Source: a phage
Sequence record: NC_101837.1
Strand: one strand, 5' to 3'
Length of the DNA stretch: 64,000 nt
The notes beneath the pieces were generated by a model. The model worked only from the letters and a program-made list of their open reading frames with translations. It had not been told where the DNA came from and ran no database searches. Made by a program: the position numbers and the translations under genes. Positions 39,132 to 44,449 of this stretch are shown one piece after another (within the stretch, counting starts at the first letter, position 1; every line of letters starts with the position of its first letter).

Positions 39132-39414
39132 GAAACCTTTAAAAGAGAAATTTGATAAGACAGCTTTTGTATTCGATACACCTCTGGACGACATCATCAG
39201 AGGTATGCAATCCTTGTATCGGAAGGCTGAATCTGAGCAGTTGTCTGAATCAGAACTTTACTGGCTTGGTTGGTGGGAGTTAAACCTGCCTAAAGCTGAA
39301 AGTTCTTGTCTGAGAACTGTTAAAACGTGCGCCCAAGAAAACGCTGCACTTGGAATCTACCACAAAAGGAAAAGATCAACAAAAAGCTCTCCAAGAAAGA
39401 CCAAAAAGTCTTGA
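39121..39414 (+). CDS. hypothetical protein
   Basis: 97-aa ORF overlapping upstream stop. Confidence 0.35.
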   Translation: MMAKKPLKEKFDKTAFVFDTPLDDIIRGMQSLYRKAESEQLSESELYWLGWWELNLPKAESSCLRTVKTCAQENAALGIYHKRKRSTKSSPRKTKKS

Positions 39415-39440
39415 CAAAAGTGTTATTAATCTGATATTAT
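39411..39440 (+). promoter_or_regulatory. sigma70-type promoter candidate
   Basis: TTGACA (39411-39416), 18-bp spacer, TATTAT (39435-39440), then ATCGG; upstream of 39474 gene with AGGAGA RBS. Confidence 0.45.
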
Positions 39441-40914: not shown

Positions 40915-41246
40915 TGACTAAAAATTCTGTAGATAACGCAATTATGGAAGCTGTTTTTGAGGATGATCACACAACAGGGGCACTTAAAACAAAAAATACA
41001 TTCGTTGTTGCCACAGGTATGTGGCGGTTGTATGAAGATGACACCATTTCATACATCCTGTACACGGATGATTACGCAGATGACCGTGTATGGTCTGCTG
41101 TTTTAAAAGAGGATTGTGAGCTGATTGAGGGCGAGCGGTTATGCATGTTCACCAGTGTGGAAACAGATGTTAAGCTTTGCTCTCTCGTCTTGTTCAAAGA
41201 TAAGGCTTATGCTCCTGATGAAGGAGAGGAGGACGAGGAAGCATGA
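40911..41246 (+). CDS. hypothetical protein
   Basis: 111-aa acidic ORF. Confidence 0.4.
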   Translation: MMTKNSVDNAIMEAVFEDDHTTGALKTKNTFVVATGMWRLYEDDTISYILYTDDYADDRVWSAVLKEDCELIEGERLCMFTSVETDVKLCSLVLFKDKAYAPDEGEEDEEA

Positions 41247-41872
41247 GAGAGCGTCTATTATCCATAGACCAGTCGTTGACACACACAGCTTGCGTTGTAT
41301 GGGACGATGGAAAGCCTGTTCATAAGGTTGTGTTACGAACTCAAAGCTCATCTGCAAAAGAGAAGAAACCAGGGACGGTTTCTTTTGCAACAGCTGCTGA
41401 GCGTATTGACTGGATCTGCAAACAGGTCAGGTATTATATCCACACGTACGGCGTTGACACCGTAGTTATGGAAGGGCTTTCCTTTGGATCACGCGGAGAT
41501 GCCACACGTGAACTGGCTGGGTTGTTTTACGGTCTTGAAGTTATGCTTTGGGATGCTTTAGCTGATTGTGAAAATGACGGCCTGTTTAAGGTCCACACAG
41601 TGACACCAACAACTGCCAAAAAGTTTGCTCGTAGTCATCTTCCTGAGGAACTTGCTTTCGAGGAGAAGAAAAAGCTTGACAAAAAGACAGGTAAAGAGCA
41701 TACTGTGAAGAAACCTGTTACGATGGATAAAAAGTTGATGGTTAAGGCCTGCGAAGTATCTGAACCTGGGTTCCTAGATGGGATCAATTTGGTACAAGGT
41801 AAGGCCGATCTCGCAGATGCTTATTGGATAGGCAGGGCGCATCTGGAGGGATTATCGCAAAGCGTAAAATAA
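41243..41872 (+). CDS. putative RuvC-fold Holliday junction resolvase
   Basis: N-terminal LSIDQSLTHTACVVWD, mid VVMEGLSFGSRG, C-terminal ADLADAYWIG resemble RuvC-like resolvase pattern. Confidence 0.4.
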   Translation: MRERLLSIDQSLTHTACVVWDDGKPVHKVVLRTQSSSAKEKKPGTVSFATAAERIDWICKQVRYYIHTYGVDTVVMEGLSFGSRGDATRELAGLFYGLEVMLWDALADCENDGLFKVHTVTPTTAKKFARSHLPEELAFEEKKKLDKKTGKEHTVKKPVTMDKKLMVKACEVSEPGFLDGINLVQGKADLADAYWIGRAHLEGLSQSVK

Positions 41873-42429
41873 GAAAGAGAGCTGTCAAAGCCCCCGTTCA
41901 TAACGGGTGGTTAAAAGATTCTAAGGACATAGCCAACTTTCGAAAAGAATTGTCAGAGGAGCAGGATGGTCTTGATCCGATCTTGTGCGAGCCACTTCGT
42001 AAGCCTTGTTTGGATCATGACCATCTGACTGGTCGTTGCAGGGGTGTTTTGTCACAATGCACTAATACCTTTGAGGGGTATGTGCTTAAATACTGGATGA
42101 AATACTGTAACGAGTATACAGATTGCAGTTTATCAGAGGCGTTGCGCCGGATGGCTGACTATTTGGAGAAAGACTACAGCGACTTCCCGCTCCACAAAAA
42201 CTACAGAGATGATATGACAAAGTTCTTGAGGAGATGCTCTAAAGCTACGATCATTGCACGAGCAGAATCAGATCTCAATCTTGTCATTAATCCAGAGTGC
42301 ACCAAGCATGAGGCTATTGAGTTCTACATGCAAGAGTTTATAAAGAAAACTGAGGAGAGAGATTTCTATGGGGATGAAAAAGGTATTCAATCCTTGCGAC
42401 TCAGTCCTGATCAGGATGAAATACCGTAA
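41824..42429 (+). CDS. endonuclease VII-family (His-Me finger) nuclease
   Basis: CLDHDHLTGRCRGVLSQCTNTFEG matches T4 endo VII core (CLDHDH...RGxLCxxCNxxEG); ORF-track start is TTG overlapping upstream gene by 49 nt, true start uncertain. Confidence 0.65.
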   Translation: MDRQGASGGIIAKRKIRKRAVKAPVHNGWLKDSKDIANFRKELSEEQDGLDPILCEPLRKPCLDHDHLTGRCRGVLSQCTNTFEGYVLKYWMKYCNEYTDCSLSEALRRMADYLEKDYSDFPLHKNYRDDMTKFLRRCSKATIIARAESDLNLVINPECTKHEAIEFYMQEFIKKTEERDFYGDEKGIQSLRLSPDQDEIP

Positions 42430-42589
42430 CTGGAAAGGTGTTGTTGCAGATCGCTGCGTTACTGAGCCTAATTTATGGTTTGGCTCTACAGAGTATCATA
42501 AAGAAGAGCAGTGGTTGATGCGTGCCTTCGATGTAGACAAGGGCGAATATCGTGACTTCGCTTTAAAAGACATTCTTCAGTTTTACTAA
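42368..42589 (+). CDS. hypothetical protein
   Basis: 73-aa ORF overlapping 3' end of previous gene. Confidence 0.3.
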   Translation: MGMKKVFNPCDSVLIRMKYRNWKGVVADRCVTEPNLWFGSTEYHKEEQWLMRAFDVDKGEYRDFALKDILQFY

Positions 42590-42601
42590 GGAATCTTAAC
42601 G

Positions 42602-43585
42602 ATGATGACAAAGTTAACTCTTGAGCAAATTTTAACACTAAAGCAACAGGGATACACTAATAGACAAATTGCTCGTGAATTTTTAGGCCGTGAGTCACGT
42701 GAGAGCTGGATCCGACTACAGCTTAAACGTGCACAGGAGAATATGTCAGAGATTGTAGGAGAAGCAACGGAGCGCTTCCTTGAAGAGCACAAAGGTGCTA
42801 AAGTTTGGGTGTATGATACAGAGACATCTCCAACAAACGGCTGGTTCTTTGGGCACTATAAGACCAACATTCAAACCTGCGGTATTGAAATTATGCCCTA
42901 CATGCTAACTTTCGCAGGTAAGTGGTTAGACAGTCCTAGTGTGGTTGACTGCGCTCTTCCCGATTACAAAATGTGGGATGAGGATATTCACAATGATCTC
43001 GAATTGATTCAGGATTTGTGGTATTATCTAGATAAATGTGATGTCGCAGTAGCCCACAATTCAGGTTTTGACTGTGGGTGGGCCAACCAACGATTTGCAT
43101 TTCACGGGTTGCCTCCAACAAGCCCCTACAAAGAGGTTGACACCCTTAAAATGATCAAGAAGGCATTCCGTTTGAATGCAAACACTTTGGAGTATGCATG
43201 CAAATACTTCCAACTGGCCCGACAGAAACTGATTGATCACACATTTGAAATGTGGATCAAGTGTGTCCATGGTGATCTTGAGGCATTTAAACAGATGCGG
43301 GAGTATAATGTTGGTGATATCCTGTCTCTGGAAGGACTGTATTTGCTGGCTCGCCCGTTTGCTAAGCAGCACCCAAACATGTCATTGTACTATCAAGACG
43401 AGGAGCCAAAAGTTCGTTGTCCACGCTGTGGTGGAGAACACCTTCACGAGGAAGAAGCTTTGGCGTATACTCAACTGAGTGCATTTAAAACATACCGCTG
43501 CGAAGGTTGTGGATCTGTTGTTCGTGACCGTAACAACATCCGCACCAGAGAAGAAATGAAAAACACCCTGATTCAGATAATCTAA
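42602..43585 (+). CDS. DnaQ-like (DEDD) 3'-5' exonuclease with N-terminal HTH and C-terminal zinc ribbon
   Basis: Exo I VYDTETS, Exo II VAHNSGFDCGW, Exo III YNVGD; N-terminal LKQQGYTNRQIAREF HTH-like; C-terminal CPRCG...CEGCG. Confidence 0.55.
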   Translation: MMTKLTLEQILTLKQQGYTNRQIAREFLGRESRESWIRLQLKRAQENMSEIVGEATERFLEEHKGAKVWVYDTETSPTNGWFFGHYKTNIQTCGIEIMPYMLTFAGKWLDSPSVVDCALPDYKMWDEDIHNDLELIQDLWYYLDKCDVAVAHNSGFDCGWANQRFAFHGLPPTSPYKEVDTLKMIKKAFRLNANTLEYACKYFQLARQKLIDHTFEMWIKCVHGDLEAFKQMREYNVGDILSLEGLYLLARPFAKQHPNMSLYYQDEEPKVRCPRCGGEHLHEEEALAYTQLSAFKTYRCEGCGSVVRDRNNIRTREEMKNTLIQII

Positions 43586-43600
43586 CAATTATAGGGAGGC

Positions 43601-44449
43601 TTGCGCCTCCCTTTTCCTCTTGGAGGCACTTTGAGCAAGAAAGAGTCCAACGACAAATACTACACAAACCCTGAGTATGCAGAATATCTTGTTGGTAAAG
43701 TAAAAGATAAGTATGGGAATTGTGCATACGTTGAGCCTTCTGCTGGAAGGGGTTCTTTTTCAAAACTATTTTCAGAGATACTGTCGTACGATTTAGTACC
43801 AGATCCTGAATTTGAAGGACCAACACCGTGCATTCAGGCAAACTTCTTGGAGGTGCATCCCAAGGCAGATGTCTTCATAGGTAACCCACCATTTGGCAAG
43901 AATTCATCCTTAGCTTGCAAATTCTTTAACCATTGTGCATCATTGCTAGAGCTTGGAGGGGCTATAGCCTTCATCTTGCCACGGACATTTGAAAAAATAT
44001 TTTTTGCAAACAAACTGGACATGTCGATGCACCTTGTCTACAGCGAAAGGTGCCCTAAGAATTCGTTTTTACTTAATGGCAAACCTTATGACGTGCCATG
44101 TGTTTTCCAAATTTGGGAGAAAAAGGCGTGCAATAGGGATCCTGTAGAGATTGGAGAGAATAAGTTATTTTCTTTTAGCACACCAGATGACTACGACTTC
44201 TGTGTAAGACGTGTTGGGTATAATGCTGGAAAAGTATTGGGGGATGATGACCCAAAATCTGAAGAATCAACATATTTCATAAAATCTTTAGTTGACGGTG
44301 TTGACAGAGTGTTTGCTGAATGCTATTCTTCTTTTCAAGAAGAAGCAGGTAAGACTGCTGGAATGAAGAGTATAGGTAAGAAAGAACTACAATACATTTT
44401 GGAGACCAGGTATGATCAAAAGCATAGACTTGACCAAAGAACTTACTGA
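43601..44449 (+). CDS. DNA N6-adenine methyltransferase
   Basis: Motif I YVEPSAGRGSF and motif IV GNPPFG. Confidence 0.65.
   Translation: MRLPFPLGGTLSKKESNDKYYTNPEYAEYLVGKVKDKYGNCAYVEPSAGRGSFSKLFSEILSYDLVPDPEFEGPTPCIQANFLEVHPKADVFIGNPPFGKNSSLACKFFNHCASLLELGGAIAFILPRTFEKIFFANKLDMSMHLVYSERCPKNSFLLNGKPYDVPCVFQIWEKKACNRDPVEIGENKLFSFSTPDDYDFCVRRVGYNAGKVLGDDDPKSEESTYFIKSLVDGVDRVFAECYSSFQEEAGKTAGMKSIGKKELQYILETRYDQKHRLDQRTY

What the first reader, a model, noticed from the sequence alone, without database searches (positions are those of the whole stretch)
41243..42429. Two junction-resolving nuclease candidates encoded back to back with a 49-nt frame overlap
A RuvC-fold-like ORF (41243..41872) is followed by an endonuclease VII-type His-Me finger ORF whose only in-frame start codons are TTG (41824, inside the upstream gene, or 41950). 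The downstream frame is -1 relative to the upstream one. This is either two independently translated resolvases, a misplaced start, or a fusion via recoding; I found no convincing slippery site.
Basis: seen in the sequence. Interest (0 to 1): 0.35.

Follow-up and report, generated by a model that had tools for sequence, protein, structure and literature searches.

The report
Endonuclease VII gene starts at ATC
In this rV5-like coliphage a RuvC-type and a T4 endonuclease VII-type junction nuclease are two separate, adjacent genes, and the second almost certainly begins not at the annotated TTG but at a rare, evolutionarily conserved ATC start codon four bases after a strong ribosome-binding site hidden in the end of the first gene.

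Summary
In detail: 41243..41872 is a RuvC-fold nuclease and 41824..42429 holds a full-length T4 endonuclease VII homologue in the -1 frame, with TTG 41824 and TTG 41950 the only canonical in-frame starts. The window is a Vequintavirus (rV5-like phage). Comparison with about 14 distinct relatives gives the reading. Wherever endo VII overlaps the RuvC 3' end, an Ile codon (ATC, sometimes ATA) lies 4 nt (6 nt in L026) after GGAGG/GGGGG; one Vibrio phage has only a weak AAGGTG. Four nt is this phage's modal RBS spacing. Selective constraint switches from the RuvC frame to the endo VII frame at that codon. Twelve of 17 such loci have no canonical start upstream. A 92%-identical relative has an in-frame TAG just after the TTG. 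Relatives with ATG/GTG start at the homologous residue (MARRYRKR vs window I-AKRKIRKR). The real CDS is therefore most likely 41854..42429, a 19-nt overlap, with a near-cognate AUC start probably coupled to RuvC translation. A frameshift fusion is rejected: no conserved slippery site, no downstream structure, no fused homologues, and a stop codon or +1 frame in some relatives. RefSeq rV5 (ATT) and PVP-SE1/GAP31 (ATC) already annotate non-canonical starts, without discussion in the rV5 paper I could read. Moderately interesting; no protein evidence.

The parts
41243..41872 (+). RuvC-like Holliday-junction resolvase gene (209 aa). Its last ~6 codons are unconstrained read-through over the endo VII 5' end.
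   Evidence: phrog_159 3.8e-39. AF2 pLDDT 92, with RuvC structures as the top 13 PDB hits. Invariant D9/E77/D189/D192. RuvC-frame synonymous/nonsynonymous counts fall to 3/14 and 0/26 after the ATC.
41845..41850 (+). Shine-Dalgarno sequence GGAGGG for the endo VII gene, embedded in RuvC codons L-E-G.
   Evidence: GGAGG/GGGGG is found at 4 nt (6 nt in L026) before the ATH codon in the overlap relatives, except Vibrio phage 496E54-1, which has only AAGGTG at about 7 nt. A 4-nt spacing is the mode for real starts in this window: 9 of 22, of which 7 are ATG.
41854..41856 (+). Proposed initiation codon ATC (AUC, near-cognate) of the endo VII gene.
   Evidence: ATC or ATA sits at the homologous position in about 14 distinct relatives. 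Constraint switches frames at this codon. It aligns with the Met of ATG-starting relatives. PVP-SE1 and GAP31 GenBank records annotate this ATC.
41854..42429 (+). Endonuclease VII CDS as re-delimited (191 aa): basic N-terminal tail, His-Me finger, C-terminal helical domain.
   Evidence: PF02945. T4 endo VII 1e7d 8.6e-17 over residues 10-154. AF2 pLDDT 88 with Foldseek hits to T4 endo VII only, TMt 0.70-0.74. Invariant D54 H55 H57 N71 E74.
41857..41907 (+). Lys/Arg-rich N-terminal tail of endo VII (AKRKIRKRAVKAPVHNG), translated and conserved in kind.
   Evidence: In Seuna/Mydovirus relatives, synonymous/nonsynonymous counts over the tail are 49/20 in the E7 frame against 7/62 and 11/59 in the other two frames. 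Equivalent tails follow ATG in ChuuTotoro, H101, UPEC06 and L028.
41824..41826 (+).
   Evidence: No SD upstream. In the 92%-identical L010 an in-frame TAG follows it after two intervening codons. There is no E7-frame constraint between it and the ATC: 6 synonymous against 74 nonsynonymous. It is absent in Seunavirus and other lineages.
41851..41853 (+). ATT, the start chosen in the RefSeq rV5 record (gp093); not conserved.
   Evidence: NC_011041 gp093 starts at this codon. It is replaced by TTT, TAT, GAT, GCT, AGT, CCT in relatives. Its spacing from GGAGG is only 1 nt.
41866..41872 (+). A_AAA_TAA: the only candidate -1 P-site slip site, at the RuvC stop; rejected as a programmed site.
   Evidence: Not conserved: no equivalent in L011, L025 or L026. 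No significant downstream structure, z = -1.16.
42368..42589 (+). Next small gene (phrog_3715), overlapping the disordered, unconserved endo VII C-terminus by 62 nt.
39411..39440 (+). Sigma-70-like promoter (the one annotated as P93 in the rV5 RefSeq record), the likely start of the operon carrying exonuclease, RuvC-like, endo VII and the DnaQ-like exonuclease.
   Evidence: 11/12 match with an extended -10 TG. Annotated as a promoter in the same position relative to the flanking genes in NC_011041. Function is inferred, not shown.
43593..43612 (+). Terminator-like hairpin ending the operon.
   Evidence: 8-bp stem with 6 GC pairs followed by a T-run. Inferred.

Best explanation
Two separate junction-processing nucleases are encoded in one operon. 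The RuvC-like gene (41243..41872) is translated normally from ATG.

The endonuclease VII gene is translated on its own, not from TTG 41824 but from the near-cognate codon AUC at 41854. That codon lies 4 nt after a GGAGG(G) Shine-Dalgarno sequence that sits inside the last codons of the RuvC-like gene. The product is a 191-aa protein beginning fMet-AKRKIRKR, and the true overlap is 19 nt.

Shown by sequence comparison:
- the SD-N4-ATH arrangement is conserved;
- coding constraint switches frames at that codon;
- canonical alternatives are absent in most relatives.

Inferred:
- the weak start keeps this potentially toxic nuclease at a few percent of what an AUG would give;
- initiation depends largely on ribosomes delivered by, or terminating from, RuvC translation. 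In other lineages the same ATH codon forms ATAG, TAATC or TAATA stop/start overlaps, the near-cognate versions of the classical ATGA/TAATG coupling motifs.
For: (1) GGAGG/GGGGG followed after 4 nt (6 nt in L026) by ATC or ATA is found wherever endo VII overlaps the RuvC 3' end. The lineages are: rV5-like, the L011-14 clade, Seunavirus, Mydovirus, L021, L022, L024, L025/pEa55, L026, L033 and L034. Vibrio phage 496E54-1 also has the ATC, but only a weak AAGGTG about 7 nt upstream.

(2) 12 of 17 such loci have no ATG/GTG/TTG between the upstream in-frame stop and the ATH. In L026 the ATC is one codon after an in-frame stop, and in the Vibrio phage it follows one directly.

(3) L010 is 92% identical in endo VII and has an in-frame TAG after the TTG. 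It also has TTT in place of ATT, but keeps ATC.

(4) Synonymous/nonsynonymous codon differences switch frame at the ATC.
- In the 45 nt upstream, the E7 frame gives 17/59 and the RuvC frame 49/18.
- At +3..+18, the E7 frame gives 14/4 and the RuvC frame 3/14.
- At +21..+84, the E7 frame gives 49/20 against 7/62 and 11/59 in the other frames.
These are the Seuna/Mydovirus counts; the rV5-like group trends the same way.

(5) Relatives with canonical starts begin at the homologous residue with the same basic tail: ChuuTotoro TAATG (MARRYRKR), H101 ATGA (MRTRKRKK), UPEC06 ATG, L028 ATG and CR3 GTG.

(6) GGAGG + 4 nt is the modal RBS geometry of this phage's own genes: 9 of 22, of which 7 are ATG.

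(7) In L024, L025 and L026 the last two bases of the ATH lie beyond the RuvC stop. They are therefore free of RuvC constraint, yet remain ATC/ATA.

(8) AUA/AUC/AUU initiate at about 1-2% of AUG in E. coli and yield N-terminal Met (Hecht et al., bioRxiv 10.1101/063800).

(9) Curators of rV5 (ATT) and of PVP-SE1/GAP31 (ATC) independently chose non-canonical starts here.
Against: There is no protein-level or ribosome-profiling evidence; everything is comparative inference.

The rV5-like and L011-14 clades do keep in-frame TTG/GTG codons upstream, so minor N-terminally extended isoforms cannot be excluded in the window itself.

A single GGAGG-N4-ATH is not statistically unusual on its own: there are 3 in the window.

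The Vibrio phage lacks a GGAGG-type SD, so the SD part of the pattern is not universal.

The syn/nonsyn counts are pairwise over related sequences and so are not independent, and the overlap segment is short. They carry no formal significance test.

The dose-limiting and coupling parts of the explanation are inference. Toxicity of endo VII over-expression is from my own knowledge of T4 gp49 and was not tested here.
Confidence: 0.8

Rival explanations
1. The database annotation is right for rV5-like phages: endo VII starts at TTG 41824, giving a 201-aa protein with a lineage-specific 10-residue extension and a 49-nt overlap.
For: It is the only canonical start upstream of the conserved domain in the window. 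Most GenBank records annotate it. P0001 and P0002 keep an open frame from it.
Against: No SD precedes it. In the 92%-identical L010 an in-frame TAG follows it after two intervening codons. The 10 codons show no E7-frame constraint: 6 synonymous against 74 nonsynonymous, while the RuvC frame gives 31/53. There is no equivalent codon in Seunavirus, Mydovirus, L021-L026 or L034.
Confidence: 0.07
2. Initiation is at ATT 41851, as in the RefSeq rV5 record, rather than at ATC 41854. This is also near-cognate, giving a 192-aa product.
For: AUU is the only non-canonical start verified in E. coli, in infC and pcnB. The rV5 curators chose it. L021 also has ATT-ATC.
Against: ATT is not conserved: L010 has TTT and L011 has TAT, with GAT, GCT, AGT and CCT elsewhere. 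It lies only 1 nt after GGAGG, whereas this phage's genes favour 4 nt.
Confidence: 0.08
3. A programmed -1 ribosomal frameshift near the RuvC stop (A_AAA_TAA, 41866-41872, possibly stimulated by the upstream GGAGGG as in dnaX) makes a RuvC-endo VII fusion protein.
For: The frame relation is -1. A four-A run lies directly before the stop. An SD-like element lies 15 nt upstream. Several relatives also have A-runs in the overlap.
Against: - There is no X_XXY_YYZ heptamer.
- No slippery sequence at all is present in L011, L025 or L026.
- An in-frame stop in the E7 frame one codon before the ATC in L026 leaves no room for a shift.
- Vibrio phage 496E54-1 has endo VII in the +1 frame.
- ChuuTotoro and H101 have plain ATG starts.
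- E7-frame constraint starts at the ATC, upstream of the A-run.
- There is no significant downstream RNA structure.
- None of 48 endo VII homologues (129-201 aa) or 33 RuvC-like homologues (157-230 aa) is a fusion.
Confidence: 0.03
4. Endo VII starts downstream at TTG 41950, and the basic region is untranslated spacer.
For: It is a canonical start lying after the RuvC stop.
Against: It would remove residues that match the phrog_423 profile from aa 29 and the nearly invariant Trp. The region upstream of the equivalent position in relatives evolves as coding sequence in the E7 frame: 49/20 against 7/62 and 11/59.
Confidence: 0.02

Closest known systems
Near-cognate AUU initiation of E. coli infC and pcnB
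   Same: A non-AUG/GUG/UUG codon of the AUH class, preceded by a Shine-Dalgarno sequence, is used as the start and conserved. Expected output is low: AUA/AUC/AUU give about 1-2% of AUG.
   Different: Here the codon is AUC or AUA rather than AUU. The gene is a phage nuclease. The start lies inside or at the end of an upstream gene. No autoregulatory logic such as IF3 sensing for infC is known, and no experimental verification exists.
Classical translational coupling by overlapping stop/start (ATGA, TAATG)
   Same: Relatives show ATAG (L033, L034), TAATC (L024, L026) and TAATA (L025, pEa55) junctions, with an SD inside the upstream gene. True ATGA/TAATG forms occur in H101 and ChuuTotoro.
   Different: The G of the start codon is replaced. 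In the window the start lies 16 nt upstream of the stop, a 19-nt overlap. Coupling would therefore need either upstream-gene ribosomes unmasking the site or back-scanning after termination.
Phage T4 endonuclease VII (gp49)
   Same: Homologous over essentially its full length: 1e7d residues 10-154 at 8.6e-17, Foldseek TMt 0.70-0.74. The D-H-x-H…N…E catalytic motif is conserved.
   Different: The four Zn-ligand cysteines of T4 are not conserved (the ligand identities come from my own knowledge). An extra approximately 20-residue Lys/Arg-rich N-terminal tail is present, and the start is AUC. T4 instead limits gp49 by nested starts and transcript-specific control (Barth et al. 1988, seen only as a citation; not read).
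Bacterial and lactococcal-phage RuvC resolvases (PF02075; PDB 4ld0, 1hjr, 4ktw)
   Same: RNase H-like fold, with RuvC structures as the top 13 PDB matches. An invariant D/E/D/D set is present.
   Different: About 50 residues longer, with an inserted beta-hairpin at 139-158. It falls below Pfam detection, and only distant homologues carry PF02075.
Programmed -1 frameshift fusions (dnaX, phage tail chaperone G/GT)
   Same: A -1 frame relation, an upstream SD-like element and an A-run at the junction.
   Different: There is no conserved slippery heptamer, no stimulatory structure and no conserved frame relation across relatives.

Membership tests
T4 endonuclease VII family (Pfam PF02945) | Sequence match above the curated threshold | tested here: met
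   31.6 bits against a cutoff of 23.6; phrog_423 6.6e-37; T4 endo VII 1e7d 8.6e-17.
T4 endonuclease VII family (Pfam PF02945) | His-Me finger catalytic residues (T4 D40, H41, H43, N62, E65) | tested here: met
   D54, H55, H57, N71 and E74 (191-aa numbering) are invariant in 24 and 32 sequences and align to the T4 LDHDH…N..EG motif.
T4 endonuclease VII family (Pfam PF02945) | Four-cysteine structural zinc site (T4 C23, C26, C58, C61; ligand identities from my own knowledge) | tested here: not met
   No invariant Cys in A1 or A4. The T4 cysteines align to D, L, S and V/T. This is a divergent sub-clade, but the fold match is retained.
T4 endonuclease VII family (Pfam PF02945) | Full-length architecture including the C-terminal helical dimerisation domain | tested here: met
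   The profile aligns to T4 residues 10-154 of 157. Foldseek aligns 157 columns at TMt 0.70-0.74.
T4 endonuclease VII family (Pfam PF02945) | Cleavage of branched DNA | not testable with these tools
   Needs biochemistry.
RuvC Holliday-junction resolvase family | RNase H-like RuvC fold | tested here: met
   AF2 pLDDT 92.2. The top 13 PDB hits are RuvC (4ld0 3.5e-7, TMt 0.74-0.78), including phage bIL67 RuvC.
RuvC Holliday-junction resolvase family | Acidic catalytic tetrad (E. coli D7, E66, D138, D141; from my own knowledge) | tested here: met
   D9, E77, D189 and D192 are invariant in 21 relatives, in the motifs xDQS, xxE and DxxDA. In the 31-protein set E77, D189 and D192 are invariant and D9 nearly so. 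The residue-to-residue mapping is by motif pattern, not by superposition.
RuvC Holliday-junction resolvase family | Pfam PF02075 match above threshold | tested here: not met
   No Pfam hit at E <= 0.1. The PDB profile hit to RuvC 7w8d is only E = 0.17. Distant homologues P0079 and P0080 carry PF02075, and phrog_159 scores 3.8e-39.
Near-cognate (AUH) bacterial start codons | SD at functional spacing upstream of the codon | tested here: met
   GGAGG + 4 nt, the mode for this phage's genes.
Near-cognate (AUH) bacterial start codons | Coding constraint begins at the codon and no canonical alternative can explain it | tested here: met
   Frame switch in syn/nonsyn counts. 12 of 17 loci have no upstream canonical start, and L010 has a TAG after the TTG.
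Near-cognate (AUH) bacterial start codons | N-terminal fMet peptide or an initiating-ribosome footprint at the codon | not testable with these tools
   The rV5 proteomics was done on purified phage particles, and the paper does not mention this protein or its start codon (PMC3606486).
Programmed -1 ribosomal frameshift fusion | Conserved slippery heptamer in the zero frame | tested here: not met
   Only A_AAA_TAA in the window, with none in L011, L025 or L026.
Programmed -1 ribosomal frameshift fusion | Downstream stimulatory RNA structure | tested here: not met
   The z-score for 41873-41960 is -1.16, and 22 of 200 shuffles fold at least as well.
Programmed -1 ribosomal frameshift fusion | Open -1 frame across the shift site and a conserved frame relation in relatives | tested here: not met
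   L026 has an E7-frame stop one codon before the ATC. Vibrio 496E54-1 has the E7-frame stop directly before the ATC, and there endo VII is in the +1 frame.

The most novel reading that the evidence does not exclude
The AUC/AUA start is not a tolerated defect but a selected control device. In this reading, endo VII synthesis is made obligatorily dependent on translation of the RuvC-like gene, either by termination-reinitiation or by ribosome-mediated unmasking. It is also held at about 1% of an AUG-driven level, fixing a large RuvC:endo VII ratio. Because AUH codons are the ones IF3 discriminates against, its output could be sensitive to IF3 status and so rise late in infection. That would make this a conserved phage counterpart of the infC AUU logic, spread across Vequintavirinae and related marine phages.
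Probability: 0.3. Interest if true: 0.55.

Novelty: new member of a known kind. Interest (0 to 1): 0.4.

Why it matters
According to Hecht et al., verified non-canonical start codons in E. coli number only two, infC and pcnB, both AUU. Here an AUC/AUA start appears to have been kept across phage lineages whose RuvC-like proteins are only 28-50% identical. It toggles to ATG in a few sister lineages and governs a structure-specific nuclease that is probably harmful in excess. That gives a clean, testable natural case of start-codon choice used to set protein dose and to couple two nucleases.

There is also a practical point. More than 100 GenBank rV5-like records annotate this gene inconsistently: from the TTG, from the ATT, or as a 92-aa fragment that has seeded its own PHROG family. 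The correct 5' end matters for anyone expressing the enzyme.

It does not change the understanding of junction resolution itself.

Tried and rejected
- Pfam scan of the RuvC-like ORF: no hit. Its identity had to come from PHROGs, conserved residues and the predicted fold.
- Profile search of the RuvC alignment against PDB sequences: only a marginal RuvC hit, E = 0.17.
- Frameshift hypothesis: I looked for slippery sites in every relative, for downstream structure, and for fused proteins from both the endo VII and the RuvC side. All were negative.
- RBS occlusion by local RNA structure around the SD and ATC: nothing beyond shuffles, z = 0.97 and -0.22.
- An internal promoter for endo VII: one 10/12 sigma-70-like match at 41676-41704, but the total number of promoter-like sites in the region is not above the shuffles. 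Not pursued.
- Short megablast of the junction to see variation among 84 rV5-like records: all are 96-98% identical, which was uninformative beyond showing that the junction is conserved and annotated inconsistently.
- Literature: the rV5 paper does not mention the start codon. No paper links Vequintavirinae with non-canonical starts or an ATC start codon with this gene. The PVP-SE1 genome paper (PMC3194984) is not held. Three searches failed on syntax.
Full report
**What is there.** The window is an rV5-like myovirus (Vequintavirus). Positions 41000-42700 are 98.5-99.4% identical to Escherichia phages JohannBauhin, APECc02, naam and many others. The two ORFs exist exactly as described:
- 41243..41872 (209 aa, ATG start);
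- 41824..42429 (201 aa, TTG start), overlapping by 49 nt, with the second in the -1 frame.

TTG 41824 and TTG 41950 are the only ATG/GTG/TTG codons in frame before the conserved domain.

**Identity of the two proteins.** The upstream protein has no Pfam hit. Other evidence places it in the RuvC family:
- It matches phrog_159, 'RuvC-like Holliday junction resolvase', at 3.8e-39.
- D9, E77, D189 and D192 are invariant across 21 relatives. In the 31-protein set E77, D189 and D192 are invariant and D9 nearly so.
- Its AlphaFold model (pLDDT 92.2) has RuvC resolvases as its top 13 PDB matches. Examples are 4ld0 at E = 3.5e-7 with TM 0.74-0.78 on the target, and lactococcal phage RuvC 4ktw.

It is about 50 residues longer than bacterial RuvC, with an inserted beta-hairpin at 139-158.

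The downstream protein is a full-length homologue of T4 endonuclease VII:
- It passes Pfam Endonuclease_7 (31.6 bits, cutoff 23.6) and phrog_423 (6.6e-37).
- A family profile hits T4 endo VII 1e7d at 8.6e-17 over residues 10-154 of 157.
- Its model (pLDDT 88) matches T4 endo VII and nothing else.
- The catalytic D-H-x-H…N…E residues are invariant.
- The four T4 zinc-ligand cysteines are not conserved.

**Where the second gene starts.** GenBank records disagree:
- Most use the TTG.
- RefSeq rV5 gp093 starts at ATT 41851.
- PVP-SE1 and GAP31 start at an ATC.
- Some records call only a 92-aa C-terminal fragment, which has become phrog_29095.

I collected the junction from GenBank relatives and from 80 IMG/VR loci. 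I analysed every locus that carries both genes.

Wherever endo VII overlaps the 3' end of the RuvC-like gene, an Ile codon lies 4 nt (6 nt in L026) after GGAGG or GGGGG. The lineages are:
- rV5-like phages
- the L011-14 clade
- Seunavirus
- Mydovirus
- L021
- L022
- L024
- L025/Erwinia pEa55
- L026
- L033
- L034

The codon is ATC in most and ATA in L025/pEa55, L033 and L034. The distantly related Vibrio phage 496E54-1 also has the ATC, but with only a weak AAGGTG about 7 nt upstream. In the window this arrangement is GGAGG-GATT-ATC, with the ATC at 41854.

Four nucleotides is also the modal GGAGG-to-start spacing of this phage's own genes: 9 of 22, of which 7 are ATG. The non-conserved ATT at 41851 is only 1 nt from GGAGG.

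Twelve of the 17 loci have no canonical start anywhere between the upstream in-frame stop and this codon. In L026 the ATC is one codon after an in-frame stop, and in the Vibrio phage it follows one directly. L010, whose endo VII is 92% identical to the window's, has a TAG in frame after the TTG (two codons between them) and TTT in place of ATT, but keeps the ATC.

Lineages with a canonical start begin at the homologous residue with the same Lys/Arg-rich tail:
- Serratia phage ChuuTotoro: TAATG, MARRYRKR
- Pseudoalteromonas phage H101: ATGA, MRTRKRKK
- UPEC06: ATG
- L028: ATG
- CR3: GTG

The window reads I-AKRKIRKR at the same position.

**Coding-constraint test.** The table counts codon differences as synonymous/nonsynonymous.

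| Group and segment | Endo VII frame | RuvC frame or other frames |
|---|---|---|
| Seuna/Mydovirus, 45 nt before the ATC | 17/59 | 49/18 (RuvC) |
| Seuna/Mydovirus, +3..+18 (overlap) | 14/4 | 3/14 (RuvC) |
| Seuna/Mydovirus, +21..+84 (up to the first downstream canonical start) | 49/20 | 7/62 and 11/59 (other two frames) |
| rV5-like group, 45 nt before the ATC | 6/74 | 31/53 (RuvC) |
| rV5-like group, +3..+18 (overlap) | 12/18 | 0/26 (RuvC) |

Constraint therefore passes from the RuvC frame to the endo VII frame at the ATC. The basic tail is translated, which rules out TTG 41950. The ten codons after TTG 41824 are not under endo VII-frame constraint. These are pairwise counts over related sequences and the overlap segment is short, so the pattern is clear but carries no formal significance.

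**Fusion by recoding.** I looked for it and reject it, for these reasons:
- The only candidate in the window is a P-site slip on A_AAA_TAA (41866-41872).
- There is no X_XXY_YYZ heptamer.
- L011, L025 and L026 have nothing slippery.
- L026 leaves no room for a shift.
- In the Vibrio phage the endo VII frame is +1, not -1.
- Some relatives simply use ATG.
- Constraint in the endo VII frame begins upstream of the A-run.
- The downstream RNA folds no better than shuffles, z = -1.16.
- None of 48 endo VII homologues (129-201 aa) or 33 RuvC-like homologues (157-230 aa) is a fusion.

**Mechanism, and what is inferred.** The best-supported reading is independent initiation of endo VII at AUC 41854 with initiator tRNA, giving a 191-aa protein and a 19-nt overlap.

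In E. coli, AUA, AUC, AUU and CUG initiate at about 1-2% of AUG and give an N-terminal Met. Only infC and pcnB (both AUU) are verified non-canonical starts (Hecht et al., bioRxiv 10.1101/063800).

In L024-L026 the last two bases of the ATH lie beyond the RuvC stop. They are not constrained by the RuvC frame, yet stay ATC/ATA. Sister lineages toggle between ATG and ATH: H101 versus the Vibrio phage, and ChuuTotoro versus L026. The weak codon therefore looks maintained rather than forced.

I infer that it limits the dose of a nuclease that is harmful in excess. That point is from my own knowledge of T4 gp49 and was not tested here.

All ATH starts occur in overlap with the RuvC 3' end. Some form ATAG, TAATC or TAATA junctions, which mirror the classical ATGA/TAATG motifs. 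I therefore infer translational coupling to RuvC. Neither inference is shown.

The two genes appear to sit in one transcription unit, from a strong sigma-70-like promoter at 39411-39440 (annotated as P93 in rV5) to a terminator-like hairpin at 43593-43612. The minus strand holds only short ORFs of 83 aa or less in this region.

**Comparison with what is known, and novelty.** It works like the AUU starts of infC and pcnB combined with ordinary overlap coupling. It is not a recoding event.

Curators of rV5, PVP-SE1 and GAP31 had already placed non-canonical starts here, so the fact is partly present in annotation. The rV5 paper does not mention it (PMC3606486). My literature searches found nothing on it. 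The PVP-SE1 paper could not be read.

I rate it a new member of a known kind, of moderate interest (0.4). It is a well-supported, deeply conserved AUC/AUA start and a useful annotation correction, but it is purely computational and not a new mechanism.

Noticed in passing
window 41854-42429; alignments A1 and A4: This clade of endonuclease VII lacks the four zinc-ligand cysteines of T4 endo VII. They align to D, L, S and V/T, and no Cys is invariant. The catalytic residues and the full T4 fold are kept, and a Lys/Arg-rich N-terminal tail of about 20 residues that T4 lacks is added.
   Followed up: partly
window 42151-42429 (aa 110-201 of the 201-aa ORF): phrog_29095, a 92-aa 'endonuclease' family, matches end to end at 1.3e-63. 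It is evidently built from truncated calls of this same gene starting at its first internal ATG, so it is an annotation artefact that became a family.
   Followed up: partly
GenBank MG0656xx records: About 20 records named 'Campylobacter phage', with host given as C. jejuni, are 96-99% identical to E. coli rV5-like phages across this region. The host label or sample purity looks doubtful.
   Followed up: no
window 42368-42589: The next small ORF (phrog_3715, with a weak sub-threshold WYL-like similarity) overlaps the endo VII 3' end by 62 nt. The endo VII residues concerned (172-191) are unconserved and have pLDDT < 50. Relatives annotate different starts for the small gene.
   Followed up: no
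window 43593-43631: The longest-ORF start of the N6-adenine methyltransferase (TTG 43601) lies inside a terminator-like hairpin (43593-43612). GenBank relatives start it at TTG 43631, which has GGAGG + 4 nt. The 5'-exonuclease gene (39775) is another TTG start with the same GGAGG + 4 geometry.
   Followed up: partly
L007 (CR3) 2162-2704; L008 (UPEC06) 2057-2710: In Certrevirus and UPEC06-like phages an extra gene of unknown function (about 180-217 aa) is inserted between the RuvC-like and endo VII genes, and endo VII there uses GTG/ATG. The CR3 RefSeq start (GTG 2706) looks about 19 codons too short; GTG 2649 after GGAGG + 6 nt restores the conserved MAIRTGRRRR tail.
   Followed up: partly
window 41657-41716 (RuvC-like residues 139-158): The RuvC-like protein carries a lysine-rich beta-hairpin insertion that is shortened or missing in the CR3/UPEC06/L026 and Aeromonas-phage lineages, and is about 50 residues longer than bacterial RuvC. 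Its role is unknown.
   Followed up: no
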